64,000 bases of DNA from an uncultured Alphaproteobacteria bacterium (GCA_910584385.1 CAJUAK010000005.1:58870-122869), one strand, 5' to 3'. Counted from the stretch's first letter, positions 44,972 to 62,302 are shown. Notes: generated by a model from the sequence alone, not told the origin. Program-made: numbers and translations.

Positions 44972-45207
44972 TGATAAATAATAATGATGTTTCCCAACAA
45001 GTTGAAAATGCTTATTTTATAATGCTTTCTCTTTGTCGTGAACTGTATCTGTGCGTTGGCCGTAATCCTGAAAAATCTGAGGAATATTTGGCAAAAACGG
45101 CTGCACTGAAAAAAGATATGCGCTATTTGGATAAGCCGCAGCTTATCGCAAAAGCACAACAGGTTTACGCACCACAGTTGAAAAAATTGTTAGGAAAAAA
45201 AATATGA
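44968..45207 (+). CDS. small helical protein, candidate epsilon/PezA-type antitoxin
   Basis: 79 aa. ATGA overlaps both the upstream stop and the downstream zeta-like start. Confidence 0.45.
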   Translation: MMINNNDVSQQVENAYFIMLSLCRELYLCVGRNPEKSEEYLAKTAALKKDMRYLDKPQLIAKAQQVYAPQLKKLLGKKI

Positions 45208-46106
45208 CTGATTTAAAACGTTTTGAATTAGATGAAGCACAACATCAGAAATGGTTTGAAGATGTTATTCTTCCTCAATTTGCAGAAGGGAAAGAAACTG
45301 CAAAAGTTCCAACTTTTGTTTTACTTACAGGACAGCCTGGCGCTGGAAAAACTTATTCTTCCTTCAGATATGCGCAAAGTATGGAAAGTGAGCCCATCCG
45401 TTTTGGCGCTGATGATTTAAGGCTGCTTTTGCCTTATGCAATGGATGCTATGAGAGAGGATGAGCAGAATTACCCATTTTTAACTAAAAAAGATGCCGGA
45501 TTGGCAAGGGAAAAGCTTGTTGATTATGCACTTGCTCATAAAAAGAATATTTTGGTGGAAAGCATCCTTGCTAATCCTGAAGATTGGAAAATGGGAACAT
45601 TGTTAAAAGCTAAAAAAGCAGGCTACAAGGTTGAATGCGCCGTTTTAGGCGTCCATAGGCATTTAAGCGAAGTCTCTATATTTTCCAGATATGAAGAACA
45701 AAAAGCAATTACAGGCTATGGGTTCGCCCCTACTTTGGATGTTCATGACAAAGCTTATACGCTTCTGCCGGATATAACGGGAAAAATGTTGCAAAACGGC
45801 ATTGCTGATGCTCTAAGCATTTATAACAGAGAATTTAAATGCTTTTATGACAGCAGAGTCGAAAAAGGGCAATCTCCCCAATTGGAAGTGATGAAAGCTA
45901 TTGGACGGTCAAGAAACAGCTCTCTTAATTATGATGAAATGTGCAATGTGGCAGTAAAATGGGATATGGTGCTTGAAAGTATGGCAAAACGTGGCGCAAG
46001 CAGAGATGAAATAGAAAAAGTCCAAATGTTAAAGGCGAATTTTAAGAAAGATACGGCTATTTGTTTTACTCCGGCTTATCGTTATAATTTTAAAGGAAAA
46101 GAGTAG
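45204..46106 (+). CDS. zeta-toxin family P-loop kinase
   Basis: Walker A LTGQPGAGKTY followed by FGADDLR (cf. zeta DGDxFR), ILVESIL, KKAGYKVECAVLGV and SRYEEQ, collinear with PezT/zeta. 300 aa. Confidence 0.6.
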   Translation: MTDLKRFELDEAQHQKWFEDVILPQFAEGKETAKVPTFVLLTGQPGAGKTYSSFRYAQSMESEPIRFGADDLRLLLPYAMDAMREDEQNYPFLTKKDAGLAREKLVDYALAHKKNILVESILANPEDWKMGTLLKAKKAGYKVECAVLGVHRHLSEVSIFSRYEEQKAITGYGFAPTLDVHDKAYTLLPDITGKMLQNGIADALSIYNREFKCFYDSRVEKGQSPQLEVMKAIGRSRNSSLNYDEMCNVAVKWDMVLESMAKRGASRDEIEKVQMLKANFKKDTAICFTPAYRYNFKGKE

Positions 46107-46110
46107 AATA

Positions 46111-47496
46111 ATGCTGGATAAAAATTTTACGGCAGTTTTGCTGGAAGAGGCTTTATCACAAGGCGGAGATTTTGCGGAAGTCTTTATGGAAAACAGTTTT
46201 TCCGGCAGCCTTGTTATTGGCGAAAGGCAAATCAAAGAGGCCGCATCTTCTATTGATAAAGGCGTCGGTGTAAGGGTTTGCAAAGGCGGTGAACTGCAAA
46301 GCTATGCATTTACAAACCGCTTGGATAAGGACAGTTTAATCAAAACAGCCCGCCAAGCAGCTGCCGGTATTAATGAAAAGAAACAAAATATACATTTTAA
46401 CCTGCAAGAAAATGAATTGGCCTCTCCACATATCATTTTGAAAACGCAAAAAGATATTTCAAAAATGCAAAAAGCGGACTTGCTTCGGGATGTTTCGGAA
46501 CGCATTTACGCGGCTCATCCTTCCATTATTCGGACGGATGGAAGTTATCTTGAGGAAATTCAAGAAGTTACGATTGCAAATTCAAACGGATTATGGATTA
46601 GCGACAAGAGGGAACGTACAAGATTTTCTATAAGTGCCCAAGCTCAAAAAGGCGACAGAAATGAGTCTGCCGGGGAAAATATTGGCGCTTTAAAAGGGTT
46701 TGAATTATATGACGGCTGGGACAAGGATGAATTTGCAGCACAGATTGCCGAAGCAGCCATCAGGAAGCTTGAAGCACGCAATTGTCCGAGCGGAAAAATG
46801 CCGGTGATTATCAACAACAAGTTTGGCGGGGTTATATTCCACGAAGCCTGCGGGCATGCCCTTGAAGCAACGGCTTTGGCAAAGAGGGCTTCTGTTTTTC
46901 AGGATAAGCTCGGACAGCAGATTGCTTCTCCGCTTGTGTCTGCCGTTGATGACGGAACAATTCCGAATGCCTGGGGAAGCCAGACAATCGATGACGAAGG
47001 ATTGAAAACACAGCGCAACCTGTTGATAAAAGACGGGATTCTGACGGGCTACCTGATTGATTCTTTTAACGGGAAACGGCTCGGATTGGCGCCAACCGGC
47101 AGTTGCCGCCGGGAAAGCTACCGTTATGCGCCGACATCGAGAATGAATAACACTTTTATCTTAAACGGAACTTCTACATTGGAAGAAATGATTGCCGCAA
47201 CAGATTATGGCCTGTTTGCTTCTAAAATGTCCGGCGGTTCGGTTAACCCGGCAAGCGGCGATTTTAACTTTTCTGTCGATGAGGCTTATATTATCGAAAA
47301 AGGCAAAATAAAACAACAGGTTAAAGGAGCTAAGCTTATTGGCAAAGGAAGCGAGATCCTGAAAAATATTGATATGGTTGGCAACAATTTAGGGCTTGCC
47401 TGCGGTATGTGCGGTTCTGTTTCGGGATCTGTTCCTACAACTGTCGGCCAGCCGGCAATCAGAGTTAGCGAAATTTTAGTCGGAGGTCAAGAATAA
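46111..47496 (+). CDS. tldD: metalloprotease TldD
   Basis: HEACGHALEA (HExxxGH), GGSVNPASGDF. 461 aa. Confidence 0.9.
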   Translation: MLDKNFTAVLLEEALSQGGDFAEVFMENSFSGSLVIGERQIKEAASSIDKGVGVRVCKGGELQSYAFTNRLDKDSLIKTARQAAAGINEKKQNIHFNLQENELASPHIILKTQKDISKMQKADLLRDVSERIYAAHPSIIRTDGSYLEEIQEVTIANSNGLWISDKRERTRFSISAQAQKGDRNESAGENIGALKGFELYDGWDKDEFAAQIAEAAIRKLEARNCPSGKMPVIINNKFGGVIFHEACGHALEATALAKRASVFQDKLGQQIASPLVSAVDDGTIPNAWGSQTIDDEGLKTQRNLLIKDGILTGYLIDSFNGKRLGLAPTGSCRRESYRYAPTSRMNNTFILNGTSTLEEMIAATDYGLFASKMSGGSVNPASGDFNFSVDEAYIIEKGKIKQQVKGAKLIGKGSEILKNIDMVGNNLGLACGMCGSVSGSVPTTVGQPAIRVSEILVGGQE

Positions 47497-48818
47497 TGCT
47501 TGCTGACGAGTTTATTGAAAAATTGTATGCGGCTTGTAAAAGTGAAAATATTGGCAAGTTTCAAATCAAATATTCATTTTCTGCCGAAGAATTTTTAAAT
47601 GTGTTTGACGGGCAGATTTCTTCGCGTGAAAATTCTCAAGAGCAGCTTTACCTTCTTGAAATATCTAAAAACGGGAAAGTCGGGCGTTTTGGCATTAGCT
47701 CTCCCGATGAAGGCGATATTCCTTTTATAATCTCTCAGGCAATGGAAAATGCATCGCTTATTGATGATGCCGATGAAAACTTTTTCTATGACGGGAAGGG
47801 GGAATATCCTAGGGTTTTGCCTTATGCGCCCTTGGCAGATAAGCTTAACAGCCTGAATAAAGAAGATTTTTTGCTTGCCGCAGAAAAACGCGCTTATCAG
47901 AATCCTTTAATTGACAAGGTTATCCGCTGCTCTTACAGCAGAAATTATGGGCGGTCGTCCATTTGTAATTCTTTAGGGCTAAAACAAAGCAAAGATTTTG
48001 ATTCTGCAAGTGCAGGCATATATTTATCGGCTAAAAAAGGCGATGTCGTCAAGACAGCCGGTGAATATGTTTTCTTTGACAAAGCAGAAGACTTTTCTGT
48101 TGAAAACTTTGTGGATAAAGCTGTTGAAAAAGCTGTGAAAAGATTAGAGACAATTAATAAAACTATTGAAAATCAATATGTTGTTTTGTCTCCTCGCGCA
48201 TTTTCCAGCTTGCTTCCCAAAATTGCATCTTTATTTTCTGCTAAAGCTGTTCAGGATAAAAAAAGCCGTTTATGCGGCAAATTAGGGCAAAAAATAGCGG
48301 CAGATAATGTTACTATTATCGACAATCCCTTGTTGGAAAAAGGCTTTGGAACAGCTGCCTATGACAGCGAAGGCATTCCGACCATATATAAAGAAGTTAT
48401 AAAAAACGGCATATTGCAAACGTATCTTTATAATCTGAAAACAGCTCATAAAGACGGTGTCAAATCTACAGGAAATGCTTCAGGAACAGGGATTGGCGTT
48501 GGAAATTTTTATCTTAAGCCTGGAGAAGCCAGCCAGCAAGCATTGTTAGACAAGGCGGGAAATTCTATTTGGATTGAAAGCTTAAACGGATTGCATGCCG
48601 GGTTTGATATTGTTTCAGGCGATTTTTCTTTTGGTGCAGAAGGTTTTGAGATAAGCCGGGGAAAAATCGGCGCAGCATTGGAACAATTTACAATTGCCGG
48701 CAATATTTATCAATTGCTGACGGATATTGTTATGGCTGGGGATGATTTAGAATTTTATGGTTCAAAATTTGGTTCACCATCTGTTTTAGTCAAAGGGTTA
48801 AAGGTTTCGGGAGAGTAA
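47496..48818 (+). CDS. pmbA: metalloprotease TldE/PmbA
   Basis: PmbA_TldD fold (GFDIVSGDFSFGAEGFEI). TAATG overlap with tldD. Confidence 0.85.
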   Translation: MLADEFIEKLYAACKSENIGKFQIKYSFSAEEFLNVFDGQISSRENSQEQLYLLEISKNGKVGRFGISSPDEGDIPFIISQAMENASLIDDADENFFYDGKGEYPRVLPYAPLADKLNSLNKEDFLLAAEKRAYQNPLIDKVIRCSYSRNYGRSSICNSLGLKQSKDFDSASAGIYLSAKKGDVVKTAGEYVFFDKAEDFSVENFVDKAVEKAVKRLETINKTIENQYVVLSPRAFSSLLPKIASLFSAKAVQDKKSRLCGKLGQKIAADNVTIIDNPLLEKGFGTAAYDSEGIPTIYKEVIKNGILQTYLYNLKTAHKDGVKSTGNASGTGIGVGNFYLKPGEASQQALLDKAGNSIWIESLNGLHAGFDIVSGDFSFGAEGFEISRGKIGAALEQFTIAGNIYQLLTDIVMAGDDLEFYGSKFGSPSVLVKGLKVSGE

Positions 48819-49108
48819 ATGGGCTCTCAGAACGCGCTCAGTGTTGTTTGCCATATAAATTCAGGCTGAGCGCTTTCTAAATGGCCGAAATCAGCTTATT
48901 AATTTTATTCGTTTTGCGAATATTATCTATAATATATATTATGCGACAAAAGTATATTATCACACAGGGCACTTCTTCTCTATGCTATTCAAGGGCTAAT
49001 GCGCTGTCCGCCTTTGTTTTCTTCTTAAAATCATGGTGCGCTTATAATTTTACGCCATTATAAAATATGACTTGCGACAGGATTGAATTTAATCTGTCAA
49101 TTTTGTTT

Positions 49109-49639
49109 CTAATCTTCTCTCGCAATATATTTAGGCGGTATAATTCCGCCCTTGATGACAAGCAAATAATATGGAACAACCGTAAATCTCAAGCCTAATT
49201 TTTCATCGCATGCTGACCAATCGACCGGAAATGTGCCTATTTCATCAACAGAATTTAACTTTACCAAGATTTCATCGCAATTTTGCAGTAAGTCCTTATC
49301 TAAATCTGGTTTGAGTGCCGGTGAAATATAAACGGCTTCAATCAGCCCGTCCCTTTGCAAGGCGTCTACATCTATTGAAAATAAATCGGCATTTTCAATA
49401 AAAGGCTTGAACATATTTATACTTTTTTCAGTCCATTTTATCGGCTCTGAAAATCCCCGAATGGCCCGACTGCGCCCTTCGAAGCAGTTTTCCATCCATT
49501 CAACTATTTTTTCATGTGTCGTTTCGCTGCCGGTTCTTTTATAATAATAACGTAAATCAGCTTGGGGATTGCATGCAAATGACAAGATGCCTTCCTGTAA
49601 AGCGGTATTTCCCTTTGATATGTAATGGTAAAGCTTCAT
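49109..49639 (-). CDS. hypothetical protein (176 aa, no recognisable domain)
   Basis: Long ORF with AGGAAG RBS. Flanked by AT-rich noncoding DNA on both sides. Confidence 0.5.
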   Translation of the reverse strand: MKLYHYISKGNTALQEGILSFACNPQADLRYYYKRTGSETTHEKIVEWMENCFEGRSRAIRGFSEPIKWTEKSINMFKPFIENADLFSIDVDALQRDGLIEAVYISPALKPDLDKDLLQNCDEILVKLNSVDEIGTFPVDWSACDEKLGLRFTVVPYYLLVIKGGIIPPKYIARED

Positions 49640-49659
49640 TTTTTCTTCCTGATTATAAA

Positions 49660-49690
49660 AAAATGGCTCGCTCCGGAGCCATTTTTCTGA
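49660..49690. terminator. bidirectional intrinsic terminator
   Basis: aaaaa-atggctc-gctccg-gagccat-ttttt. Confidence 0.55.
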
Positions 49691-49698
49691 TTATAAGC

Positions 49699-50037
49699 TT
49701 ATCCTCTGAAAATAACACGGACTAAATTTATAAAGTAAGCAATTGTTAAGAAAGCAAAAGCCATCATCAGCGTGCTTTCTATGCCAATGCTGCTGTTGTG
49801 CCAAACAAGCCACTGAACCAAAACTGCGTCAATCAATCCGCAGATTACCAAGCTGAGCCAATAGCGCTTGCCGGTTGCAACAAAGGTAAAAATCAAAGCC
49901 GGAACGGCAATCCATACATTGCGCATCAAGCGGATTGTCTTATCCACGAAGTTAATGATTTGAGGAATGTTTAGGATATAACCGGCCAAAATAACACAAA
50001 TGGCTACGGCCAAGATTAAAAAATAAGTTTTTTTCAT
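49699..50037 (-). CDS. small 4-TM membrane protein
   Basis: Hydrophobicity pattern only. 4-nt overlap with the upstream HD gene. Confidence 0.5.
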   Translation of the reverse strand: MKKTYFLILAVAICVILAGYILNIPQIINFVDKTIRLMRNVWIAVPALIFTFVATGKRYWLSLVICGLIDAVLVQWLVWHNSSIGIESTLMMAFAFLTIAYFINLVRVIFRG

Positions 50038-50570
50038 TTTATTTTCCTTTCTGTTAAATTATCTAAAACTTCAAGAATCAAAGGATGCTGCTTGGCATGA
50101 TATAACCAGTTTCGGCAATTTCCAAGAAATTCGGGAATTAATTGCACAGGAGAACGCTGATTTTTATCATAATAGGCTGCCTGCATAACACATTCAATTT
50201 TATCAAGGCCTTTAACAAAGCGCGCTTCAGGCGTGATTTGCGCTTCAAATTCATTAAAGAGCTCTAAAAATTCTGAATTACCCAGCTCCCTGCTCAACCT
50301 TTGCGCAGCTTCCCTTTCCAACCGGGGCTTGTCAGCCAGGTTTGCATCGCAAGGCGTTATGTCTCCGGCATAAATTTCTTGCAAATCATGAACAATGGCT
50401 AATTTTAAACATTTTTCCTTATCCAAATTATCCGGCGTAAGCAAAAATGCCAGCAGTGCAACGCCAAAGCTGTGATCTGCAACAGATTCCGGAGAAGAAA
50501 CATTCCTTTTACACCATCCGGAGCGTTTTAAATCTTTAAATTTTCCGATAATATCAATAAGTTGTTCCAT
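50034..50570 (-). CDS. HD-domain phosphohydrolase (YfbR-like)
   Basis: ADHSFGVALLAFLL (H..D) and AIVHDLQEIYAGDI motifs. Confidence 0.8.
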   Translation of the reverse strand: MEQLIDIIGKFKDLKRSGWCKRNVSSPESVADHSFGVALLAFLLTPDNLDKEKCLKLAIVHDLQEIYAGDITPCDANLADKPRLEREAAQRLSRELGNSEFLELFNEFEAQITPEARFVKGLDKIECVMQAAYYDKNQRSPVQLIPEFLGNCRNWLYHAKQHPLILEVLDNLTERKIK

Positions 50571-52144
50571 TATAATGACGCCTTTATTAATTCCCGGGTA
50601 TATTTTTCCTTGGGATGCTCAAAAACTTCATCTGCCGGCGCTTTTTCAATAAAATGCCCGTCTTTCATAACAGCAATAGTATCGGAAAGTGATTTTATGG
50701 CCTGCATATTATGGGATATGAAAACATAAGCAATATTTCTTTCCTTTTGAATTTGCTGCAATAATTTTAAAATCTGTATTTGAATGGTTACATCCAGCGC
50801 TGATGTTGGTTCGTCCAGTATTAAAATTTCAGGTTCAACAATCAAGGCTCTTGCAATGGCAATCCGCTGCCTTTGTCCGCCGGAAAATTCATGGGGATAT
50901 TTATTGACCGTTTCATTAGACAGCCCGACTTCTTTCAACACTTTCATTATCTTTTCCAGGCGTTCCTTTTCCGTTAAATCCGGAAAATGCACCAGCAGCC
51001 CCTCGCCTATGATTTCAGCAGCGCTCATCCTCGGATTTAAAGAGTTAAACGGATCCTGGAATACAATTTGAACTTTTCTTCTTAGCTCTTTGTTTTTGTT
51101 GTTATATTTTATTTCCTTCCCTTTTAGGAATATCTTCCCCTCATAGGGTATCAGGCGGCTTACGGCCAAAGCCAATGTGCTTTTTCCGGAACCGGATTCA
51201 CCGACTATTCCCAGAGTTTGCCCTCTGTTAAGCGAAAAAGACACCTTATTAACGGCGGTGAAAAAAGTCTTGGGTTTTCCCCAAAAATTAAATGAAGTTG
51301 GAAATTTTACGCTTAAATTTTTAACTTCCAAAACAATCTCATTATTTTCTTTCTTTACATTTTTCAAAGGATTAAATGACGATATTAATTCTTTAGTGTA
51401 ATTATTTTCAGGAGAGGAGAAAATATTACCGGTGGTGCCGCTTTCTATTAATTTCCCATTCTTCATAACTATTATTTTATCAGCAATCTTTTTGACTAAT
51501 TGCAAATCATGGCTGATAAAAATAATTGCCATTCCCATTTTCTTTTGTAAATTTATAAGCAAATCAACAACTTGCGCTTGTATTGTAACATCGAGCGCCG
51601 TGGTGGGTTCATCAGCAATCAAAATCTCCGGTTTGTTGGCAATGGCCATTGCAATCATTACCCTTTGCCTTTGTCCGCCGGAAAGCTGGTGCGGATAAGC
51701 ATCCATCTTTTGCCTGGCATTTGGAATTCCGGTTAATTTTAATAAATTAAGCGTTTCTTTTTGCGCCGCTTCTTTGCTTAGATTTTGGTGCTGCATAATC
51801 ATTTCTGCAATTTGCCGCCCTATTTTATGCAAAGGGTTAAGCGAAGATAACGGCTCTTGAAAAATAAACGATATTTTACTGCCTCGGAGTTTGGGAAGCC
51901 GGCTGTTGTTAATCAGTTCTTCGCCATGAAATTTAATGGAGCTTTGGGGCGAATGAAAAGCTTTCGGATAAGGAAGCAACCCTAAAATTGAAAGGGCCGT
52001 AACGGATTTTCCGGAGCCGGATTCACCGACTATTCCTAAAATTTCCCCTTTTTTTAAGGTGAAAGATATATTCTCAGCTGCCAGAAATTTTTCACCATTC
52101 TGGTTAAAGCCAACCGTTAAATCTTTTACTTCCAACAAATCCAT
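50570..52144 (-). CDS. yejF: ABC transporter ATP-binding protein with two fused ATPase domains (YejF-like)
   Basis: Two Walker A sites (GESGSGKS twice), two LSGGQRQR signatures and two Walker B sites. 524 aa. Confidence 0.9.
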   Translation of the reverse strand: MDLLEVKDLTVGFNQNGEKFLAAENISFTLKKGEILGIVGESGSGKSVTALSILGLLPYPKAFHSPQSSIKFHGEELINNSRLPKLRGSKISFIFQEPLSSLNPLHKIGRQIAEMIMQHQNLSKEAAQKETLNLLKLTGIPNARQKMDAYPHQLSGGQRQRVMIAMAIANKPEILIADEPTTALDVTIQAQVVDLLINLQKKMGMAIIFISHDLQLVKKIADKIIVMKNGKLIESGTTGNIFSSPENNYTKELISSFNPLKNVKKENNEIVLEVKNLSVKFPTSFNFWGKPKTFFTAVNKVSFSLNRGQTLGIVGESGSGKSTLALAVSRLIPYEGKIFLKGKEIKYNNKNKELRRKVQIVFQDPFNSLNPRMSAAEIIGEGLLVHFPDLTEKERLEKIMKVLKEVGLSNETVNKYPHEFSGGQRQRIAIARALIVEPEILILDEPTSALDVTIQIQILKLLQQIQKERNIAYVFISHNMQAIKSLSDTIAVMKDGHFIEKAPADEVFEHPKEKYTRELIKASL

Positions 52145-53190
52145 TATGCGTTCTTTCTACTGTCAAAAGCGTCGCGCACGCCTTCTCCGATAAAAATTAA
52201 TAAGGAAAGCAGGCTGGAAAGCACAATAAATATTGTTATTCCAATCCATGGCGCTTGCAAATTATCCTTGCCCTGCCGGACTAAATCTCCAAGCGACGGA
52301 TAATCATGCGGCAGTCCTAAGCCCAAAAAATCTAACGCGGTCAATGCAACAATCGCCTCTGAAAGGATAAAAGGGAGAAAGCTCAGCGCTGCGGTAACGG
52401 CATTGGGGAGAATATGCTTATATATAATTCTGAAATCGCTTACGCCAAGGGCTTTGGCGGCCATGACAAATTCAAAATTGCGTGTTCTCAAAAATTCTGC
52501 GCGAACCACGCCGGTCAGGTTCATCCATGAGAAAAAAAGCAGGATTATAAGCAGGCTCCAAAATCCGGGAACAAATATGCTGGCAACAATAATTAAGATA
52601 AACAGCTGCGGCAAAGATTCCCAAATTTCCATAAAACGCTGAAAGAAAATATCTATTTTTCCGCCGAAATAGCCCTGCACTGCCCCAGCGAAAATACCAA
52701 TAACCGAAGAGAAAAATGTAAGCGTAAAAGCAAAAAATATTGATAGGCGCAGGCCGTATAAAATCCGGGCAAGGATATCCCTTCCCTCATCATCCGTCCC
52801 AAGCCAGTGTTTTGCATCAGGTGCCGCCGGGGCCGGTTCTTCAAGCTCGTAATCTACCGTATTAAAGGAAAAAGGGATAAGCGGCATAACCATCCAGCCG
52901 TTTTCATTTATATTTTGTTGCAAAAAGGCATCTTTATAATCGGCGGCGGTTGGAAAATCCCCTCCGAAATCCTTATCCGTATAGGTTTGAAAAAGCGGAT
53001 AATAAAAGCTTCCCTTATATCTGACCAGCAACGGCTTATCATTTGCCAGAAATTCGGCCAAAAGCGTTAAAAGAAAAACAATTAAAAAAATAATCAAAGA
53101 ATAAGCCGCGCGCTTATTCTGCCAAAAGGCAAACAAGCGCCTTTGGTTAAGAGGAGACAGCCGCTTAAACACCTTATTGAGGCATTTCAT
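52144..53190 (-). CDS. yejE: ABC transporter permease, YejE-like (OppC family)
   Basis: N-terminus LSPLNQRRLFAFWQNKRAAYSLIIFLIVFLLTLLAEFLANDKPLLVRYKGSFYYP is near-collinear with E. coli YejE. Confidence 0.85.
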   Translation of the reverse strand: MKCLNKVFKRLSPLNQRRLFAFWQNKRAAYSLIIFLIVFLLTLLAEFLANDKPLLVRYKGSFYYPLFQTYTDKDFGGDFPTAADYKDAFLQQNINENGWMVMPLIPFSFNTVDYELEEPAPAAPDAKHWLGTDDEGRDILARILYGLRLSIFFAFTLTFFSSVIGIFAGAVQGYFGGKIDIFFQRFMEIWESLPQLFILIIVASIFVPGFWSLLIILLFFSWMNLTGVVRAEFLRTRNFEFVMAAKALGVSDFRIIYKHILPNAVTAALSFLPFILSEAIVALTALDFLGLGLPHDYPSLGDLVRQGKDNLQAPWIGITIFIVLSSLLSLLIFIGEGVRDAFDSRKNA

Positions 53191-55447
53191 CTGGTTTCAC
53201 CTCAATCGGGGTTGGAGAAGCTATTGTTATTTCCTGCGGCGTTTCAATGACTTCTGTTTCGGGCTCGGCCTCCTCTTCTGCGCTGACAGGCACAGGCTTG
53301 ATTTCCTTTACTTCTTCAGTCGGGCTGGCTGTTATTTCCTCTATTTTATTGCCCTCTATTACTTTTACGGAAACTTCAGGTTCAATTTCTTCTGCTTCTT
53401 CCGTGTTAACGGCTTCAGAAAAGGCTTTTATTTCTTTTTCCATATCTTTCTGCCCTTCTTCCGTTAAGGTTGGTTTTCCATTGAAGAAATTATCAATAGT
53501 TTCTTTCTTAATTTTTTCAAAGCTGTTTTGTTGAAGCTCTTTTAATTTTATATCTGATGCCGGATTTTTTTGAACCCATTCTTCATACCATTTTTGAAAA
53601 GGTGCCACAGATAAAGCCAGATTTTCTTTTTTTATCGTTTCCGCTTTAATTTGGCTCAATAACTGCCCTTTGGCCAAATCGTGCAGATTAAGCTCTTTTA
53701 GTTCGGCACATTGCGGGGCTTTGAACAGATATTCTTTTATTATATTTGAAGCCAGGCAAAGCTTGTCATTGATTTCGCTTTCTTTTTTGAACGGATCGCG
53801 AATTGCTAAAAGCGCCTGGTTGTTGTTTTTAAAGTTTTCAATAAAATCATCATCGTTTCTTATGCCCAGCCTGTTGTTTCGGCTATTTAAACTCTGCAAA
53901 ACAATAACGCTTTTATCCAAAATTCCTTCTTGTTGCAGCTTTTGCAAAAACTCTTGCAATTTTCCATACAGGCAGCTGACCTGCTGGTTGTATGCCTTCA
54001 CCAAGTGGTTCATATCCTGCTGTTTCACCCAATCCTGGTCTTGCTGGTATACCCACTCTCTGGCGGGTTTGACGTGGCAGAATTCATCATAAATATATGC
54101 GTTAGAAGGCATATCCACAAAAGCAAAAAAGGCGTGGCTGCTTTTGTCTTTTTCAATATCTTCGGCGATAATATCCAGTGTTTTTAAGGAATTGACCACA
54201 TAAAAGTTATTTGTTGAATACCCGAGAAGCGGCGTTTCTTTTACTTTAACAAAAGGCTTTAACCCTTCGTAAACAAACCCTAAATTAGTAAACAGCCCGC
54301 TGCTTTCCAGCCATTCTGCCACTAAAAATTCCGTTTTTGCAAATGGCGAAAGATTTAAAGCATCCAGATTAATCGGCAAATTTTGTTTTTTTACGCATTT
54401 GTTTATGCTGTCCAACTGGTTCGAGCATAGTTCCAAACCTCTGGACTGATAAACGCTTATATTATATTTCGCCTTTTTGAAACTGTTAAATAACTGATTG
54501 TTTTTTAGGTATAAATATTGGTTTGATAGATCATCAAAATTCCAGAGGCTGTTTAATGAAACCAAATTGAGCAGATTATTTCCAATATCTTCGGGCAATG
54601 TTCCGGGATTTAACGTTTGAACAATATTTAAAAACGGGTTTTCTTCACGCACATAAGCATTCGGATATAACACAAACCTGTTCAGGCTGTAAAATCCTAA
54701 CTGGTTCTTATGGCTCTGCTCTATTTGCGCCAAGGTTTCGCCCGTTAAAAATTTATTATTAGCCCATGCATCGGATTGGTTTAAGGTTCCTAATTCAGGC
54801 AAGCCGATGTAAATGAAATATTTTGCGTTGCTGTTGGCAATGGCTTGCGGCTTTGTCTGATGGGTAACCCGGAAGTCTTTTCCATTTTTTTGAGCCGAAA
54901 AATAAGTGTCTGTTCCCACGCCAATGCCTATCAACAGCAAAATTCCCGTAAAATAAGCCTGCGTGGCGCGCGATGAAAAGCTCAACAGGCCGAATAAAAC
55001 AATGGCAAGGGCACCAATAACAATATAATGCGAGCCATGCATAAACAAATTTCCGGTATCTGCGCCAAAATAATTGCTTATCAGCCCATAAAGCATTGCA
55101 TCTTTATTAAACAAGGCAAATTGATTTAAAAATGCCAAAGCAATGCATGAAAACAACAGCGTTACGATTAAATTCTGCAAAGAATATGAAAATGAGAACA
55201 GAAAAATTATGGATACAGAAAAGATGGAAATGCCTGCCAAGACATATAAGAATTCCGGAGAAATCTGGTGATTTTCCTGAAAAATGCCATAGCTTCCCGC
55301 ATTTGCAAATAAAATGAAGTCTATTGACAGCAGGGAAATGATTATCAAGCTTTTGCATACTAAATTAAACAGAAATCCGCTCCATGGGCGGGGTGCGGAT
55401 TTTTTCTTGCTCTTTCCGCGTTTTTCACTCAGATATATATCCTGCAT
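53174..55447 (-). CDS. large polytopic membrane protein of unknown function with C-terminal Pro/Glu-rich low-complexity tail
   Basis: 757 aa. About 5 N-terminal TM helices, an approximately 450-aa extracytoplasmic domain with no motif I recognise, and a tail EEAEEIEPEVS...PTPIEVKPDEMPQ. 17-nt overlap with yejE. Confidence 0.6.
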   Translation of the reverse strand: MQDIYLSEKRGKSKKKSAPRPWSGFLFNLVCKSLIIISLLSIDFILFANAGSYGIFQENHQISPEFLYVLAGISIFSVSIIFLFSFSYSLQNLIVTLLFSCIALAFLNQFALFNKDAMLYGLISNYFGADTGNLFMHGSHYIVIGALAIVLFGLLSFSSRATQAYFTGILLLIGIGVGTDTYFSAQKNGKDFRVTHQTKPQAIANSNAKYFIYIGLPELGTLNQSDAWANNKFLTGETLAQIEQSHKNQLGFYSLNRFVLYPNAYVREENPFLNIVQTLNPGTLPEDIGNNLLNLVSLNSLWNFDDLSNQYLYLKNNQLFNSFKKAKYNISVYQSRGLELCSNQLDSINKCVKKQNLPINLDALNLSPFAKTEFLVAEWLESSGLFTNLGFVYEGLKPFVKVKETPLLGYSTNNFYVVNSLKTLDIIAEDIEKDKSSHAFFAFVDMPSNAYIYDEFCHVKPAREWVYQQDQDWVKQQDMNHLVKAYNQQVSCLYGKLQEFLQKLQQEGILDKSVIVLQSLNSRNNRLGIRNDDDFIENFKNNNQALLAIRDPFKKESEINDKLCLASNIIKEYLFKAPQCAELKELNLHDLAKGQLLSQIKAETIKKENLALSVAPFQKWYEEWVQKNPASDIKLKELQQNSFEKIKKETIDNFFNGKPTLTEEGQKDMEKEIKAFSEAVNTEEAEEIEPEVSVKVIEGNKIEEITASPTEEVKEIKPVPVSAEEEAEPETEVIETPQEITIASPTPIEVKPDEMPQ

Positions 55448-55512
55448 GAGCTATCTTTCAATTATAAATTAGGCCTGTTCATATATAAGCATAGTTTATT
55501 TTACATTTAAAG

Positions 55513-55550
55513 CAAAAATCCCCGGCTGTTGCATAACTGCCGGGGATTTT
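55513..55550. terminator. bidirectional intrinsic terminator downstream of rpsD
   Basis: aaaaa-tccccggc-tgttgcataact-gccgggga-tttt. Confidence 0.65.
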
Positions 55551-56177: not shown

Positions 56178-56366
56178 TATTTTATCCTTTAATCAGGTTT
56201 AACATTATTGTCCCGGTAGTTTCGTTAATGCGAACGGGGCTTTTTTGCCCTCTTTCCCGGAAGTAAATCGTAATCTATAATAAATAAAAAACAAATGCAA
56301 GCAAAAAATTACTGGATTTTTCAATTGTTTCCCGTTAAAATCTGCTGTGATAAACGGAGCTTATGG

Positions 56367-58100
56367 ATGTCTTACGATTATATGCTGCAGCAGGCGGTTG
56401 CCCTGCATGACAAAGGAGAGCTCGACGAAGCTGAAAAATTATATCGGCAGATATTGGAAGCTGTTCCCGATCAGCCTGACGTTTTAAATCTTTTGGGGCT
56501 GGTTGCACAAGAAAAAGGCATTCATAATGAAGCTGTGCAGCTTTTTTACAGGGCAATAAAACAAAAACCGGATCAAGCCCCCTACTATTTTAACCTGGCC
56601 TTATCGCTCCGGATGTTAAAAAAACATCTTGAAGCATTGGAATATTTTGACAAGGTTTTATCCCTGCAAGCCGGAATTAAAGAAGTTTATATCCAAAAAG
56701 CCCTTATATACCAGGAAACCGGACAAATTGAGCTTGCCCGCCAAAACTATCAGAACGCCATTGATTTGGACAGCTCCTGCAACGAAGCAAAAATCAGGCT
56801 GGCAGCCACTTATAATGATGACAAAGCTTTGCCTTTGCTGTCTGATTTATCTGAAAACCCTTTAGGGGCTTATTACCTGTCATTAATTTACATGCGAAAA
56901 AATGATTTTGACAAGGCGTTGCTATATGCCCTGAAAGCAAATAATGCCGCCCCGCATGCCGATGAGATAAAAGTTGTCCTGGGGCAGATTATGGCGACAA
57001 AGCAGGATGATTCCTCATCTGAAACATGGTTTAAAAAAGCCCTTGTTTTGAATCCCCGCAACCAAGCCGCCTTAATCGGCTTGGCCAATTTATATGCAAA
57101 GCAAAATTCTGAAGATGCCGAAGCCTTATATTTGCGCCTGCTTGATGTTGAACCCGGAAATTTGGACGCCCATATTAACTATGCGGCTTTTTTACACCGG
57201 CAAAAGCGCCTTGCCGAAGCTTTGGAAGAATACCGAAAAGCCGTGATTATTAATCCGGACCTGCCGGAAACAAATTATAACCTGGCATTGGTTTTAAAAG
57301 ATGCTGATGAAAAAGAAGAAGCTTTGGCCCTGCTGTTTAAGACCTTGGAAAAACTTCCCGAAAAGCTTGAGATATCACAAGCCATCAGCGAAACGCTCCT
57401 GCTTTTGCACCGCGGCGGGCAAAAGGAATATGCTGAAAAAATTGCCGCAAACTGGGTAAAAAGCTATCCGGAAAACCATTTTGCACGGCATGTCTTAGCC
57501 GCACTGACTGGAGAAAAAATTGAGACTGATAAAATTTATACTGAGAATCTCTTTGAACTTTTTGCTGATAATTACGAATTGGTTATGTCGCTTTTGGATT
57601 ATTCAGTTCCGATGGCTATGGGACGAATTCTTGGAAATGCTCAAGGTACCATTGTGGATTTGGGGTGTGGTTCGGGGCTGGCTGGAAAAGCTCTTAAAAC
57701 TCCTCAAAATCAAATCATAGGCGTTGACATTTCTCAAAAAATGTTGGAAAAGGCCAAAGAAAAAAATATCTACAGCGACCTGATATGCATGGATATTGCG
57801 GATTATCTTAAAACCCGTCCCTGCGCCGATTATTTTATTGCCGCCGATGTTTTCAACTATCTGGGCGATCTATCCGAAATTATTGCGCTGCTGAAAAATA
57901 AAAAAATATGTTTTTCAGTTGAAACATCTGCCGAATGCCCTGACTATCAACTGAGCAGCAGCGGAAGATACCTCCACAACCCCGAATATATCCAAAAACT
58001 TTTACAAGAAAACGGTTTCTCCAATATTTATGAGGAAGACATTGCCTTGCGCAAAGAAGACGGCCTCCCCGTCCAGGGGAAAATTTATTTTGCACAATAA
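56367..58100 (+). CDS. TPR-repeat protein fused to a class I SAM-dependent methyltransferase domain
   Basis: Multiple TPR units followed by motif I VDLGCGSGLAG and post-I ...IGVDIS. Start ATG 56367 after ACGGAG. Confidence 0.75.
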   Translation: MSYDYMLQQAVALHDKGELDEAEKLYRQILEAVPDQPDVLNLLGLVAQEKGIHNEAVQLFYRAIKQKPDQAPYYFNLALSLRMLKKHLEALEYFDKVLSLQAGIKEVYIQKALIYQETGQIELARQNYQNAIDLDSSCNEAKIRLAATYNDDKALPLLSDLSENPLGAYYLSLIYMRKNDFDKALLYALKANNAAPHADEIKVVLGQIMATKQDDSSSETWFKKALVLNPRNQAALIGLANLYAKQNSEDAEALYLRLLDVEPGNLDAHINYAAFLHRQKRLAEALEEYRKAVIINPDLPETNYNLALVLKDADEKEEALALLFKTLEKLPEKLEISQAISETLLLLHRGGQKEYAEKIAANWVKSYPENHFARHVLAALTGEKIETDKIYTENLFELFADNYELVMSLLDYSVPMAMGRILGNAQGTIVDLGCGSGLAGKALKTPQNQIIGVDISQKMLEKAKEKNIYSDLICMDIADYLKTRPCADYFIAADVFNYLGDLSEIIALLKNKKICFSVETSAECPDYQLSSSGRYLHNPEYIQKLLQENGFSNIYEEDIALRKEDGLPVQGKIYFAQ

Positions 58101-58153: not shown

Positions 58154-58711
58154 TTAGAATGTGTATCTTACACCAGCTGTCAATTCTTCAACATATTTGA
58201 TGCTGTCGGCACCGATGTAGCCGTAACGTCCCATTACACGGGCGGCAAAGTGATCGGTGAAGTTATACTGGGCACCGATACCGGCACGGTAACCGACACG
58301 GGTTGTGGTAACTTTATTGTCAACATTCTTCATGTCAAAGTCATAAATACCAAGACCCAAAGAACCTAACAAGTTGAATTTGCCTTCGCAACCCATCGGC
58401 AGGTAGCCGTACATATCCAAACCATAAGCATTGTACTGTGATTTGTATGTGTTGTCGTCACGATGTTTCTTTCTTTCGCCTGTCTGTTGGAAAAAGGCTT
58501 CCAAACCTACGTTTTCGCCCATTTCAACACCGGCGTTAATGATTCCTGAATTGAACTTGTTGTCATAGCTGTTCAATCCTTTTTTCAAGCCAGCTTTTGA
58601 ATAGGCATAATCAATACCAACATAAGGTTTAAATTCCATAAATTCTTTTGCGTTTGCCTGGAAAGCAAAAAGGCATGCGGCGCCAGCTAAAAGTAATGTT
58701 GTTTTCTTCAT
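58154..58711 (-). CDS. outer-membrane beta-barrel protein (OmpW/Opacity-like)
   Basis: Signal peptide, alternating amphipathic strands, C-terminal aromatic (…GVRYTF). Confidence 0.7.
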   Translation of the reverse strand: MKKTTLLLAGAACLFAFQANAKEFMEFKPYVGIDYAYSKAGLKKGLNSYDNKFNSGIINAGVEMGENVGLEAFFQQTGERKKHRDDNTYKSQYNAYGLDMYGYLPMGCEGKFNLLGSLGLGIYDFDMKNVDNKVTTTRVGYRAGIGAQYNFTDHFAARVMGRYGYIGADSIKYVEELTAGVRYTF

Positions 58712-58891
58712 ATTCATAAACTCCATTTATAAATTAAGTTTTTCCAATTAAACCACTTTGCTGCGGTTCTTTTTGACAGGCGTTTAAGCGCTGTTATCCA
58801 TGTAAATAACATTGGATAAAACAATTTAAAGGGTGGGATGCAAAAAAAATGGTGTTAATTTATAAAAAAAGTTAAACAAGAGGATTTTTTT

Positions 58892-59536
58892 ATGGTTTTT
58901 AATGCCCCTGAACGCTTATGCAGCTTATGTCCGCGGTTGGTCGAATTTCGCAATGGGAATATTAAAAAGTTTCCGCATTACTATAACGGTGCTGTTGAAC
59001 CTTTCGGAAATATTGATGCGGAAATCCTTATTGTCGGTCTGGCACCCGGATTAAACGGCGCCAATCAGACCGCCCGCCCCTTTACCAATGATTATGCCGG
59101 CGATGTTTTATATCCCATGCTGAAAAAATATAATCTGGCCCGGGGCGTTTACCAAAAGAGAAAAAATGACGGTTTCGAACTTGTTAACGCGCGTGTAACA
59201 AACGCTGTCCGCTGCGTGCCGCCTCAAAACAAAGTTACGGGAGAAGAAACCAAGACTTGCGGCGTTTTTCTTAAGCAGGAAATAGAAGCCATGCCCCGGC
59301 TGAAAGCCATCTTATGCCTGGGCAGCGTGTCGCATGGCGCGGTTTTAGGCGTTTTGGGTTATAAAAAAAGCCAATATAAATTTGCACACGGCGCCGAGCA
59401 TTTTCTTGATAAGCATAACATCCGCCTGGTTGATTCTTACCACACCTCAAGATACAACATTAATACCGGCGTTTTAACGGAAGAAATGTTTGAAGATGTT
59501 ATCAAAAAAATATGCGGTTTAATTTCCAATTCCTGA
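58892..59536 (+). CDS. uracil-DNA glycosylase, family 4/5 (Fe-S containing)
   Basis: Four Cys (CSLCP, VRCVPP, KTCG) and GLAPG in place of GEAPG. 214 aa. Confidence 0.8.
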   Translation: MVFNAPERLCSLCPRLVEFRNGNIKKFPHYYNGAVEPFGNIDAEILIVGLAPGLNGANQTARPFTNDYAGDVLYPMLKKYNLARGVYQKRKNDGFELVNARVTNAVRCVPPQNKVTGEETKTCGVFLKQEIEAMPRLKAILCLGSVSHGAVLGVLGYKKSQYKFAHGAEHFLDKHNIRLVDSYHTSRYNINTGVLTEEMFEDVIKKICGLISNS

Positions 59537-60094
59537 AAAGCCCATAAAAGCCATGGAGAGCAAACTTGCTGTAATCAACGCAATGGGCGCACCGCGCATG
59601 CTTTGGGGAATATCGGTCAGATTCAGGCGTTCACGCAGGCCGGCAAACAGGACTATAGCTAATGTAAAGCCGACGCTGCTTGAAAAAGCAAAACAAACAG
59701 ACTGCAATAATGTGTAGTTTCTTTGCACACACAGAAGCGCAACGCCCAAAACGGCACAATTGGTTGTAATGAGCGGCAGAAAAATTCCCAAAGCCTGATA
59801 CAAACCCGGAGATGTCTTTTTCAAAACGATTTCCACCATTTGAACCAATGAGGCAATAACCAGAATAAATACAATCGTATTCATAAAAGCTAAGCCGTTT
59901 GGCAACAGCAGGGCTTTATATATTATGGAAGTTACCAATGTTGATATGGTTATGACAAAGATAACCGCCCCGCCCATGCCTGCAGCCGTGGACACTTTTT
60001 TTGAAACGCCAAGGAAGGGGCAAATTCCAAGAAATTGGGAAAGGACAATATTGTTAACCAAAACGGCTGTGATGAAAATAAGCGCATATTCCAT
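59519..60094 (-). CDS. rnfA: Rnf complex subunit A
   Basis: NNIVLSQFLGICPFLGVSKK signature. 191 aa. Confidence 0.9.
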   Translation of the reverse strand: MEYALIFITAVLVNNIVLSQFLGICPFLGVSKKVSTAAGMGGAVIFVITISTLVTSIIYKALLLPNGLAFMNTIVFILVIASLVQMVEIVLKKTSPGLYQALGIFLPLITTNCAVLGVALLCVQRNYTLLQSVCFAFSSSVGFTLAIVLFAGLRERLNLTDIPQSMRGAPIALITASLLSMAFMGFSGIGN

Positions 60095-60699
60095 TATTTT
60101 ATTCCCTGTTTGGCTTTATAAGCATTTAAAATCAGAATCAATCCCGCCAGGGCCAAAAAAGCTCCGGGCGGCATAATAAACAGCAAAACCGTGTCGGAGC
60201 CTTCGGCTAAAAAGCTCCACCCAAAAATTGAGCCTGCGCCCAAAACTTCGCGGACCGTGCCTAAAATAGTCAGGGCCAAAGCAAAACCCAAGCCCATACC
60301 CACAGCATCTAAAAAAGACTGCTTTACATTATTTTTAGAAGCAAAAGCTTCCGCACGCCCCAAGATAAGGCAGTTAACCACAATCAAGGGGATGAATATT
60401 CCCAGCCGGGCATGAAGCGCCGGCAGATAAGCCGCCATAAGCATATCCACAACGGTAACAAAAGTCGCAATAATAACAATATAAGAAGGAATTCGGATTG
60501 TTCCCGGAATGAGATTCTTCACAAGGGAAATCGCGCAATTAGACAAGATTAAAACAAAAAGCGTCGCAAGCCCCATGCCTAAGCCGTTTGCCGCAGAAGT
60601 CGTTACGCCGAGCGTCGGGCACATGCCCAACATCATAACAAAAATGGGGTTTTCCTTAATGATTCCTCTTGTTAAGTTTTCAAAACTGACTTTATTCAT
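60094..60699 (-). CDS. rnfE: Rnf complex subunit E
   Basis: GMCPTLGVTTSAANGLGMGLAT. Confidence 0.9.
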   Translation of the reverse strand: MNKVSFENLTRGIIKENPIFVMMLGMCPTLGVTTSAANGLGMGLATLFVLILSNCAISLVKNLIPGTIRIPSYIVIIATFVTVVDMLMAAYLPALHARLGIFIPLIVVNCLILGRAEAFASKNNVKQSFLDAVGMGLGFALALTILGTVREVLGAGSIFGWSFLAEGSDTVLLFIMPPGAFLALAGLILILNAYKAKQGIK

Positions 60700-61279
60700 T
60701 TTTGTTTCCTAAATTGAACCGATTATATCCCTTATAAGCCTTTGAAAGCGCGTCAACAGCGGCGCGGGAGCTGATTGTCGCGGCTGTAACGGCATCAATA
60801 TCGCCGCCGTCTTTCTTTAATTTAAAATCATTAGAGGCTGGGCGATAGCCTTTAAATTGGCTTTTAAAGCGCGTTTCGCTTATTTTTGTTCCCAAGCCCG
60901 GCGTTTCATGCTGTTCCAGTATTTCATAATTATTAATCGTTCCATCAATGAAAATCCCGACCATCATTTCTATTTTTCCGCCAAAACCTTTATCTGATGA
61001 TGATTTGACGGCTATTGACGTTATCTGTCCGTCTTTTCTTGCCGGAAACAACTCCATTTGGGTTCCGTCTTTTAATTTAACGCTGATACGTTCGGCATAA
61101 GGGTCGTTGTCAAAATCTCCCCCAACAACAGATGCTATTGCCTCAAGCTGTTTTTTTTCTTTGGCTTTGCTGATTGCAGGTTCTGTCAGTTTATACACGC
61201 TTCCGATTAAAAAAGCCGAACAGGCGGAAATAATAACAAGCGTTACGCATAAATTAAACAGGGATATTTTTTTTGACAT
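60692..61279 (-). CDS. rnfG: Rnf complex subunit G (FMN-binding)
   Basis: IDAVTAATISSRAV flavin attachment motif. Start at ATG 61279 (TAATG overlap with rnfD). Confidence 0.85.
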   Translation of the reverse strand: MSKKISLFNLCVTLVIISACSAFLIGSVYKLTEPAISKAKEKKQLEAIASVVGGDFDNDPYAERISVKLKDGTQMELFPARKDGQITSIAVKSSSDKGFGGKIEMMVGIFIDGTINNYEILEQHETPGLGTKISETRFKSQFKGYRPASNDFKLKKDGGDIDAVTAATISSRAAVDALSKAYKGYNRFNLGNKNE

Positions 61280-62277: not shown

Positions 62278-62302
62278 TGTTTAGTCGTCTTTCTCTTATT
62301 TG

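What the first reader, a model, noticed from the sequence alone, without database searches (positions are those of the whole stretch)
49699..55447. Coupled operon: 757-aa polytopic membrane protein, then yejE, yejF, HD hydrolase and small 4-TM protein, with no yejA or yejB
Five genes on the minus strand are coupled by 17-, 1-, 1- and 4-nt overlaps. The permease is unmistakably YejE-like, with an N-terminus collinear with E. coli YejE. The ATPase is the fused double-domain YejF type. The canonical yejABEF importer (peptides, microcin C) needs the YejA solute-binding protein and the second permease YejB, and neither is present here. A 757-aa protein takes their upstream position. It has about 5 TM helices, a large extracytoplasmic domain I cannot assign, and a Pro/Glu-rich repetitive tail (…EEVKEIKPVPVSAEEEAEPETEVIETPQEITIASPTPIEVKPDEMPQ). 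An HD-domain phosphohydrolase and a tiny 4-TM protein are coupled downstream. This could be a non-canonical ABC system, possibly an exporter, or an importer with an unconventional receptor component, whose cargo is handled by the HD enzyme.
Basis: partly seen in the sequence, partly recalled or inferred. Interest (0 to 1): 0.6.

Follow-up and report, generated by a model that had tools for sequence, protein, structure and literature searches.

The report
PbgA-like membrane protein with half Yej transporter
Gut and rumen Alphaproteobacteria keep a three-gene operon that joins a catalytically dead, phosphatase-fold membrane protein to only half of the YejABEF peptide importer (one permease plus the double ATPase), which suggests, but does not prove, an ABC importer built in an unusual way.

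Summary
Five minus-strand genes (49699-55447) overlap by 17, 1, 1 and 4 nt and lie between two terminator hairpins. The permease is a true YejE (55% identical to E. coli YejE). The ATPase is a fused double-domain YejF (46% identical). No YejA or YejB is encoded in the 64-kb window.

In 74 species-level gut or rumen alphaproteobacterial genomes, all 71 loci with enough downstream DNA show big protein, then YejE, then YejF (median gaps 7 and -1 nt). None has YejA or YejB within 10 kb. The HD hydrolase and the small TM protein vary in position and are often absent, so they are not core. Distant homologues of the big protein lack adjacent yejEF.

My best reading (confidence 0.4) is a YejE homodimer plus YejF, with the big protein as periplasmic partner. 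I could not test whether YejA and YejB are absent genome-wide.

The parts
55505..55550 (-). Terminator-like hairpin plus U-tract after rpsD. It marks the upstream boundary of the unit.
   Evidence: dG -21.7 kcal/mol, z -5.3, 0 of 200 shuffles fold as well. Sequence read.
53174..55447 (-). 757-aa inner-membrane protein ('BIG'). It has a basic cytoplasmic N-terminus, 5 TM helices (residues 22-188), a periplasmic alkaline-phosphatase-superfamily domain (about 190-630) with six invariant Cys and no conserved catalytic residues, and a disordered acidic tail (634-757).
   Evidence: no family hit; homologues; model, pLDDT 73, pTM 0.74; fold matches; conservation; tail.
52144..53190 (-). YejE-type (OppC-like) ABC permease of 348 aa. 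The EAA coupling motif is intact, and the start codon overlaps the BIG stop by 17 nt.
   Evidence: PRK15021, 451.8 bits, above cut-off; 55% identity to E. coli YejE; alignment.
50570..52144 (-). YejF-type fused double ABC ATPase of 524 aa. Both Walker A, signature and Walker B motifs are canonical. It overlaps yejE by 1 nt.
   Evidence: sequence; NF011713, 625 bits; 46% identity to E. coli YejF.
50034..50570 (-). HD_3 phosphohydrolase of 178 aa (YfbR/HDDC2-like). It is co-transcribed here but is not a conserved member of the module.
   Evidence: PF13023, 130.8 bits; variable position or absence in related loci.
49699..50037 (-). 112-aa predicted 4-TM protein with no known family. It is a syntenic neighbour in one subclade, on either strand, and is not core.
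49650..49690 (-). Terminator-like hairpin plus U-tract. It marks the downstream boundary of the unit.
   Evidence: dG -15.9 kcal/mol, z -4.3, 0 of 200 shuffles fold as well. Sequence read.

Best explanation
Shown. The region is one transcription unit. Its conserved core is three genes: a PbgA/YejM-like inner-membrane protein (5 TM helices plus a disulfide-stabilised periplasmic alkaline-phosphatase-fold domain that lacks the canonical metal ligands and nucleophile), a YejE permease, and a YejF double ATPase.

Inferred. YejE, probably as a homodimer, and YejF form a type I ABC importer core. This parallels RbsC2 with the fused ATPase RbsA. The big protein cannot be the second transmembrane subunit, because its cytoplasmic loops are only 2-4 residues long and carry no coupling helix. 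I propose instead that it is the transporter's dedicated membrane-anchored periplasmic partner. It would bind a ligand at the membrane-periplasm interface, where its conserved TM-domain residues cluster, and present that ligand to YejE or gate access to it. In this role it would replace the soluble YejA receptor. The likely cargo class is that of other Yej systems: peptides, cationic antimicrobial peptides or cell-wall peptides.

The HD hydrolase and the small TM protein are lineage-specific passengers in the operon.
Against: Four distant BIG homologues in other Alphaproteobacteria have no adjacent yejEF (L080-L083), so BIG works without the transporter there. Tight spacing is weak evidence in this lineage. 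The non-conserved HD and small-TM genes also overlap their neighbours in this window, and rpsD-BIG adjacency is also conserved (L082) without any obvious functional link. I know of no Opp/Yej-family system with a single permease, and no type I importer with a receptor that is not an SBP. I did not test genome-wide absence of yejB or of an orphan SBP. No interaction or complex prediction could be run. All 74 genomes belong to one clade, so some of the conservation may be inherited gene order.
Confidence: 0.4

Rival explanations
1. Shared promoter only. BIG is an autonomous PbgA-like envelope sensor or scaffold. yejEF was relocated behind its promoter in the ancestor of this gut clade, and it works with a YejB permease and an SBP encoded elsewhere in the genome.
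For: BIG homologues stand alone in other Alphaproteobacteria, and one of them keeps the TPR-rpsD-BIG neighbourhood (L082). Unrelated genes (HD, small TM) are also translationally overlapped in this window. An orphan SBP is known for a Yej system: A. tumefaciens YejBEF-YepA (bioRxiv 10.1101/2022.07.15.499691, also held as PMC9790009; seen in the listing). The periplasmic loop of YejE is as conserved as the rest of the protein relative to E. coli, which would fit retained docking of an SBP.
Against: Splitting an importer operon between its two permease genes is unusual. The BIG-yejE junction is kept in all 71 assessable loci, while both flanks change. No YejB was seen in about 1.5 Mb of related sequence around the locus.
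Confidence: 0.33
2. Sensor or mechanotransmission module. [quoted passage not shown] Alternatively, ATP hydrolysis by YejEF drives a conformational change in BIG.
For: The architecture is PbgA-like and the catalytic site is degenerate. Conserved residues concentrate at the periplasmic membrane interface. PbgA/YejM acts as a ligand-controlled anti-adaptor rather than as an enzyme (PMC12444477).
Against: No sequence-level membership in the PbgA family was found: hhalign gives 46% probability over 76 columns. The Arg pair of PbgA that binds lipid A has no conserved counterpart; K209 is only 60% K/R. Known mechanotransmitting ABC systems use the MacB/FtsX fold, not the type I importer fold.
Confidence: 0.14
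3. BIG is an active LtaS/EptA/OpgB-type transferase or a phosphatase that modifies an envelope polymer, with YejEF moving its substrate or product.
For: The fold is shared with LtaS/LtaP, EptA/EptC, MCR-1, BcsG and GacH. Distant family members give sub-threshold Pfam Sulfatase hits. A Mg-dependent phosphatase activity has been reported for the YejM periplasmic domain despite its loss of the canonical ligands (PMC12444477).
Against: No acidic, His, Ser or Thr residue is invariant in 125 homologues. The position after strand beta-1, the metal ligand in LtaS and EptA, is variable (E/D/G/N/H). The SDHG-equivalent after the 'NTVV' strand reads G-x-S-G.
Confidence: 0.08
4. One reading: BIG, YejE, YejF, the HD hydrolase and the 4-TM protein work together, and the HD enzyme processes the imported cargo.
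For: All five genes are co-transcribed between two terminators in this genome. HD directly follows yejF in four other species (L026-L028, L072).
Against: HD and the small TM gene are absent within 10 kb in most loci. Where present, they sit at variable positions and on either strand.
Confidence: 0.05

Closest known systems
YejABEF peptide / microcin C / antimicrobial-peptide ABC importer (E. coli, Salmonella, Brucella, Sinorhizobium), and YejBEF-YepA muropeptide importer of Agrobacterium tumefaciens
   Same: The YejE permease is orthologous (55% identity, NCBIfam PRK15021 above cut-off). The fused YejF ATPase is orthologous (46% identity). The gene order yejE-yejF with a 1-nt overlap is the same.
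   Different: There is no yejA and no yejB at the locus in the window or in 74 related genomes. A 5-TM alkaline-phosphatase-fold protein sits in their place. The system may therefore have a single permease species and no classical SBP. Neither point has been tested genome-wide.
PbgA / YejM / LapC (enterobacterial LPS sensor and anti-adaptor of LapB-FtsH)
   Same: Both have five N-terminal TM helices followed by a periplasmic alkaline-phosphatase-superfamily domain. Both lack the canonical LtaS/EptA metal ligands. Full-length structural matches are found to 6v8q and 6xlp.
   Different: There is no significant sequence similarity and no Pfam or NCBIfam membership. BIG has three conserved disulfides and a long acidic tail. 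It is restricted to uncultured Alphaproteobacteria and is linked to an ABC transporter. The neighbouring TPR protein has no TM segment and no rubredoxin domain, so it is not a LapB.
EptA / MCR-1 / EptC, LtaS / LtaP, OpgB, BcsG (membrane-anchored phosphotransferases of the alkaline-phosphatase superfamily)
   Different: The catalytic Thr/Ser nucleophile and the Glu/Asp/His metal ligands are not conserved in the BIG family.
RbsAC2B ribose importer
   Same: It pairs a fused double-NBD ATPase with a homodimeric permease, which is the stoichiometry proposed here for YejF with YejE2.
   Different: It belongs to a different ABC importer family, it uses a classical soluble SBP (RbsB), and one of its ATP sites is degenerate. 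Both sites look canonical in this YejF.

Membership tests
YejABEF ABC importer (Opp/PepT family, TC 3.A.1.5) | YejE-type (OppC-like) permease with EAA coupling motif | tested here: met
   NCBIfam PRK15021, 451.8 bits (cut-off 439). 55% identity to E. coli YejE over residues 1-339. EAA region conserved.
YejABEF ABC importer (Opp/PepT family, TC 3.A.1.5) | Fused two-domain ATPase YejF | tested here: met
   Two ABC_tran domains plus oligo_HPY. Best NCBIfam match is NF011713 over the full length (625 bits, below the equivalog cut-off of 834). 46% identity to E. coli YejF.
YejABEF ABC importer (Opp/PepT family, TC 3.A.1.5) | Second, OppB-like permease YejB encoded with the system | tested here: not met
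   tblastn with E. coli YejB gives only weak cross-hits on yejE, both in the window and in 78 related loci with 10-kb flanks. BIG has no coupling helix. Presence elsewhere in the genome was not testable.
YejABEF ABC importer (Opp/PepT family, TC 3.A.1.5) | Cluster C solute-binding protein YejA (SBP_bac_5) | tested here: not met
   There is no tblastn hit to E. coli YejA in the window (best E 0.92) or in the related loci. The neighbouring ORFs carry other Pfam domains. Presence elsewhere in the genome was not testable.
PbgA / YejM / LapC | Five TM helices followed by a periplasmic alkaline-phosphatase-fold domain | tested here: met
PbgA / YejM / LapC | Sequence-level family membership | tested here: not met
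   No Pfam or NCBIfam hit. No hit of the family profile to PDB sequences. hhalign against E. coli LapC gives 10-46% probability over 76-121 columns.
PbgA / YejM / LapC | LPS binding at the interfacial domain and partnership with LapB-FtsH | not testable with these tools
   There is no conserved Arg pair. The adjacent TPR protein lacks a TM segment and a rubredoxin domain. Binding itself needs experiment.
LtaS / EptA / OpgB-type phosphotransferases and sulfatases (alkaline-phosphatase superfamily enzymes) | Invariant metal ligands (Asp/Glu, Asp-His) and a Ser/Thr/Cys nucleophile | tested here: not met
   In 125 full-length homologues no D, E, H, S or T column reaches invariance. The invariant residues are C341, C351, C457, C492, C564, C580, W465 and Q489.
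LtaS / EptA / OpgB-type phosphotransferases and sulfatases (alkaline-phosphatase superfamily enzymes) | Alkaline-phosphatase core fold | tested here: met

The most novel reading that the evidence does not exclude
This would be the first type I ABC importer of the Opp/Yej family that runs on a single permease species (YejE2-YejF). Instead of a soluble substrate-binding protein, it would use a membrane-anchored alkaline-phosphatase-fold pseudoenzyme as its obligatory periplasmic receptor or gate. That would be a new way of building an ABC importer, fixed in a whole order-level clade of gut Alphaproteobacteria.
Probability: 0.2. Interest if true: 0.75.

Novelty: new variant of a known kind. Interest (0 to 1): 0.5.

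Why it matters
ABC importers of the Opp/Dpp/Yej family are textbook five-part machines: one SBP, two different permeases and two ATPase domains. A clade-wide, tightly coupled operon keeps only one permease and the ATPase, and adds a PbgA-like pseudoenzyme. If these parts really form one machine, it would show that the receptor and the second permease can be replaced, and it would give a second biological role for catalytically dead alkaline-phosphatase-fold membrane proteins, beyond LPS sensing by PbgA. The system belongs to abundant but uncultured gut and rumen Alphaproteobacteria. Yej systems in other bacteria handle antimicrobial peptides and cell-wall peptides, so it may bear on how these organisms cope with host peptides. 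Independently of the transporter question, the 757-aa protein defines a sizeable uncharacterised family: 990 representatives at 50% clustering, none of the named members carrying a functional annotation beyond 'hypothetical' or a dubious 'acyltransferase'.

Tried and rejected
- **Family scans of the 757-aa protein.** Pfam and NCBIfam gave no hit.
- **Profile search against PDB sequences.** It returned only a spurious low-complexity hit on ribosomal protein eS8.
- **hhalign against known architectures.** EptA/EptC was not significant. E. coli LapC gave only a marginal match around the 'NTVV' strand.
- **Foldseek against AFDB50.** The library was not available.
- **Consensus promoter and terminator scan.** Counts were close to the shuffle expectation, and it missed both real-looking terminators. 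I found those by reading the sequence and confirmed them by folding.
- **Tandem Repeats Finder on the tail.** Nothing was found. The tail is compositionally biased, not repetitive.
- **Homologue search with YejE.** The top 120 hits were all 71-82% identical relatives, so it gave no view of the nearest relatives outside that range.
- **BIG as a replacement for YejB as the second TM subunit.** Rejected. The model has five closely packed helices, cytoplasmic loops of 2-4 residues and no EAA-type coupling helix.
- **The neighbouring TPR protein as a LapB analogue.** Rejected. It has no TM segment and carries a methyltransferase domain instead of a rubredoxin domain.
- **The acidic tail as the feature that links BIG to YejEF.** Rejected. 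Twelve homologues have no tail, including the yejEF-linked P0021 and P0022.
- **Genome-wide search for yejA and yejB in these MAGs.** Not possible.
- **Complex prediction.** Not possible. The structure tool takes one chain and returns no interface measures.
Full report
**1. Observation**

The five minus-strand ORFs exist exactly as described: 757, 348, 524, 178 and 112 aa. Their overlaps of 17, 1, 1 and 4 nt follow from the coordinates.

Reading the flanks shows a GC-rich hairpin with a U-tract right after rpsD (55505-55550; dG -21.7 kcal/mol, z -5.3). A second one follows the last gene (49650-49690; dG -15.9 kcal/mol, z -4.3). The five genes are therefore one bounded transcription unit. The consensus scan missed both hairpins.

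**2. The transporter genes**

- The 348-aa protein passes the NCBIfam cut-off for the microcin C permease (PRK15021, 451.8 bits against 439). It is 55% identical to E. coli YejE from residue 1 to 339. Its EAA region and its long TM1-TM2 periplasmic loop are conserved.
- The 524-aa protein has two ABC_tran domains and an oligo_HPY segment. Its best match is YejF over the full length (625 bits, below the strict equivalog cut-off of 834). It is 46% identical to E. coli YejF. Both Walker A, signature and Walker B motifs are canonical in the sequence itself.
- tblastn with E. coli YejA, YejB and LapC finds nothing else in the 64-kb window.
- The neighbouring ORFs carry unrelated domains. To the left are radical SAM, an amino-acid permease, a U32 peptidase, SIR2, HAD, an alpha/beta hydrolase, His_Phos_1, a zeta-toxin-like kinase and TldD/PmbA. 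To the right are rpsD, a TPR-methyltransferase, an OMP beta-barrel, UDG and Rnf.

**3. The 757-aa protein ('BIG')**

BIG has no Pfam or NCBIfam hit, and its family profile has no hit to PDB sequences.

A word-indexed search found only 22 relatives, all unnamed or labelled as hypothetical proteins of uncultured Alphaproteobacteria. An exhaustive profile search found 990 cluster representatives at E <= 1e-3, of which 155 were at E <= 1e-30.

An AlphaFold model built from the 22-sequence alignment has mean pLDDT 73 and pTM 0.74. It shows these features:

- five TM helices at 22-50, 64-83, 88-110, 139-157 and 160-188;
- cytoplasmic turns of only 2-4 residues;
- an alpha/beta ectodomain at 190-630;
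- a disordered tail at 634-757.

The basic N-terminus (7 K/R in 25 residues) and six invariant ectodomain cysteines fit an N-in topology with a periplasmic domain.

**4. Is BIG an enzyme?**

In a MAFFT alignment of 125 full-length homologues, these residues are invariant or nearly so: C341, C351, C457, C492, C564, C580, W465, Q489, N280, P447, F258 and F252. No Asp, Glu, His, Ser or Thr column is invariant.

- The position after strand beta-1, a metal ligand in LtaS and EptA, varies (E/D/G/N/H).
- The segment that hhalign places on LapC 'DNTVVIITAGRG' reads 'NTVVxxQGxSG' in the BIG consensus. From my own knowledge, this is where active members carry 'SDHG'.

I infer a catalytically dead binding or scaffold domain, like PbgA/YejM, whose LtaS/EptA metal ligands are also not conserved (PMC12444477). 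This inference rests on conservation patterns, not on a structural superposition, because the tools did not return one.

Conserved residues of the TM domain (F44, G51, F56, E65, Q109, F110, S139) all lie at the periplasmic ends of helices. This points to a ligand or partner at the outer face of the inner membrane.

The tail is acidic: 24% Glu and net charge -19 here. It is net-negative in 103 of 113 homologues that have a tail, with a median of -19. It has no DNA-level repeat, varies from 0 to 842 residues, and is absent in 12 members, including the yejEF-linked P0021 and P0022.

**5. Comparative genomics**

A scan of one genome per GTDB species returned 74 loci. Almost all are titled as gut, rumen or faecal Alphaproteobacteria MAGs, for example Ca. 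Scatocola faecipullorum. A few carry other bin labels.

tblastn and ORF-gap analysis show BIG followed by YejE and then YejF on the same strand in all 71 of these loci with enough downstream DNA. Adding three related loci fetched earlier gives 74 measured gap pairs. The median gap is 7 nt between BIG and yejE (60 of 74 are at most 20 nt) and -1 nt between yejE and yejF (70 of 74 are at most 20 nt).

Across these loci BIG falls to 23% identity, while YejE stays at 65-76% and YejF at 53-64%. The flanks change: one subclade has TPR-methyltransferase and rpsD upstream, and another has gatCAB. No YejA is found in any of these loci, and YejB gives only weak cross-hits on yejE.

HD is within 10 kb in about 17 loci and directly after yejF in 4. 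The small TM gene is present in about 24 loci and is often convergent. Both are missing from the more distant subclade. They are neighbours, not components.

**6. A caveat**

Four distant BIG homologues from other uncultured Alphaproteobacteria have no yejEF beside them: P0127, P0145, P0141 and P0139, on loci L080-L083. One of them keeps the TPR-rpsD-BIG arrangement (L082). The BIG family therefore has an autonomous function, and the link to yejEF is specific to the gut clade. Conserved adjacency can also be inherited order, as rpsD-BIG shows.

**7. Mechanism**

BIG cannot be the missing second permease, because it has no cytoplasmic coupling helix. If the operon encodes a complete machine, the membrane core must be YejE2 with the fused ATPase YejF. 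RbsAC2B has this stoichiometry (PMC11466899).

I rank the explanations as follows:

| Explanation | Confidence |
|---|---|
| BIG is the transporter's dedicated periplasmic partner, acting as receptor or gate in place of YejA | 0.40 |
| Shared promoter only, with yejB and an SBP elsewhere. An orphan SBP is known for A. tumefaciens YejBEF-YepA (title and abstract listed) | 0.33 |
| PbgA-style sensor, or a mechanotransmission module | 0.14 |
| Active transferase | 0.08 |

The decisive test is a whole-genome search for yejB and SBP genes in these MAGs.

**8. Verdict**

The locus is a new variant of a known kind: half of a Yej importer, fixed together with a new PbgA-like pseudoenzyme family across an entire gut alphaproteobacterial clade. 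Interest is moderate (0.5). The genomic pattern is robust and unusual, but the functional link is still only an inference.

Noticed in passing
window 48922-48949 (minus strand), within the intergenic gap 48819-49108: A dif-like XerC/XerD site, TTGTCGCATAATATATATTATAGATAAT. It is the only match in the window to the proteobacterial dif consensus (recalled from memory), with 3 mismatches against 0.01 expected by chance. It lies between convergent gene blocks and at the maximum of cumulative GC skew. The window probably spans the replication terminus.
   Followed up: partly
window 56295-58100 (+); L080 6080-7903; L082 2979-4781: A roughly 600-aa TPR plus SAM-methyltransferase protein with no TM segment lies next to BIG-family genes, with or without rpsD in between. 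This holds even in distant Alphaproteobacteria that lack yejEF. It may be a functional partner of the BIG family, or it may simply be old synteny.
   Followed up: partly
window 46111-48818 (+) and 45204-46106 (+): A TldD/PmbA metallopeptidase pair converges on the operon. Just upstream of it lie a zeta-toxin-like kinase and a His_Phos_1 phosphatase. A PmbA/TldD gene also lies near a distant BIG homologue in L081.
   Followed up: no
window 49109-49639 (minus strand): A 176-aa ORF lies directly after the operon terminator. It has no Pfam or NCBIfam hit and no homologue in any of the 78 related loci. It could be an orphan gene or not a gene at all.
   Followed up: partly
window 58154-63628: An Rnf complex operon (RnfC, D, G, E, A; 59519-63628, minus strand), a UDG-family glycosylase (58892-59536) and a small OMP beta-barrel protein (58154-58726). 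Related genomes show the same synteny. This fits an anaerobic, Gram-negative gut alphaproteobacterium.
   Followed up: partly
L019 (JAISVX010000003.1), L045, L053, L059, L061: Several public bins that carry this alphaproteobacterial locus are titled Lactobacillaceae, Eubacteriales, Bacteroidaceae or [Ruminococcus] gnavus. These are probably mislabelled or chimeric MAGs.
   Followed up: no
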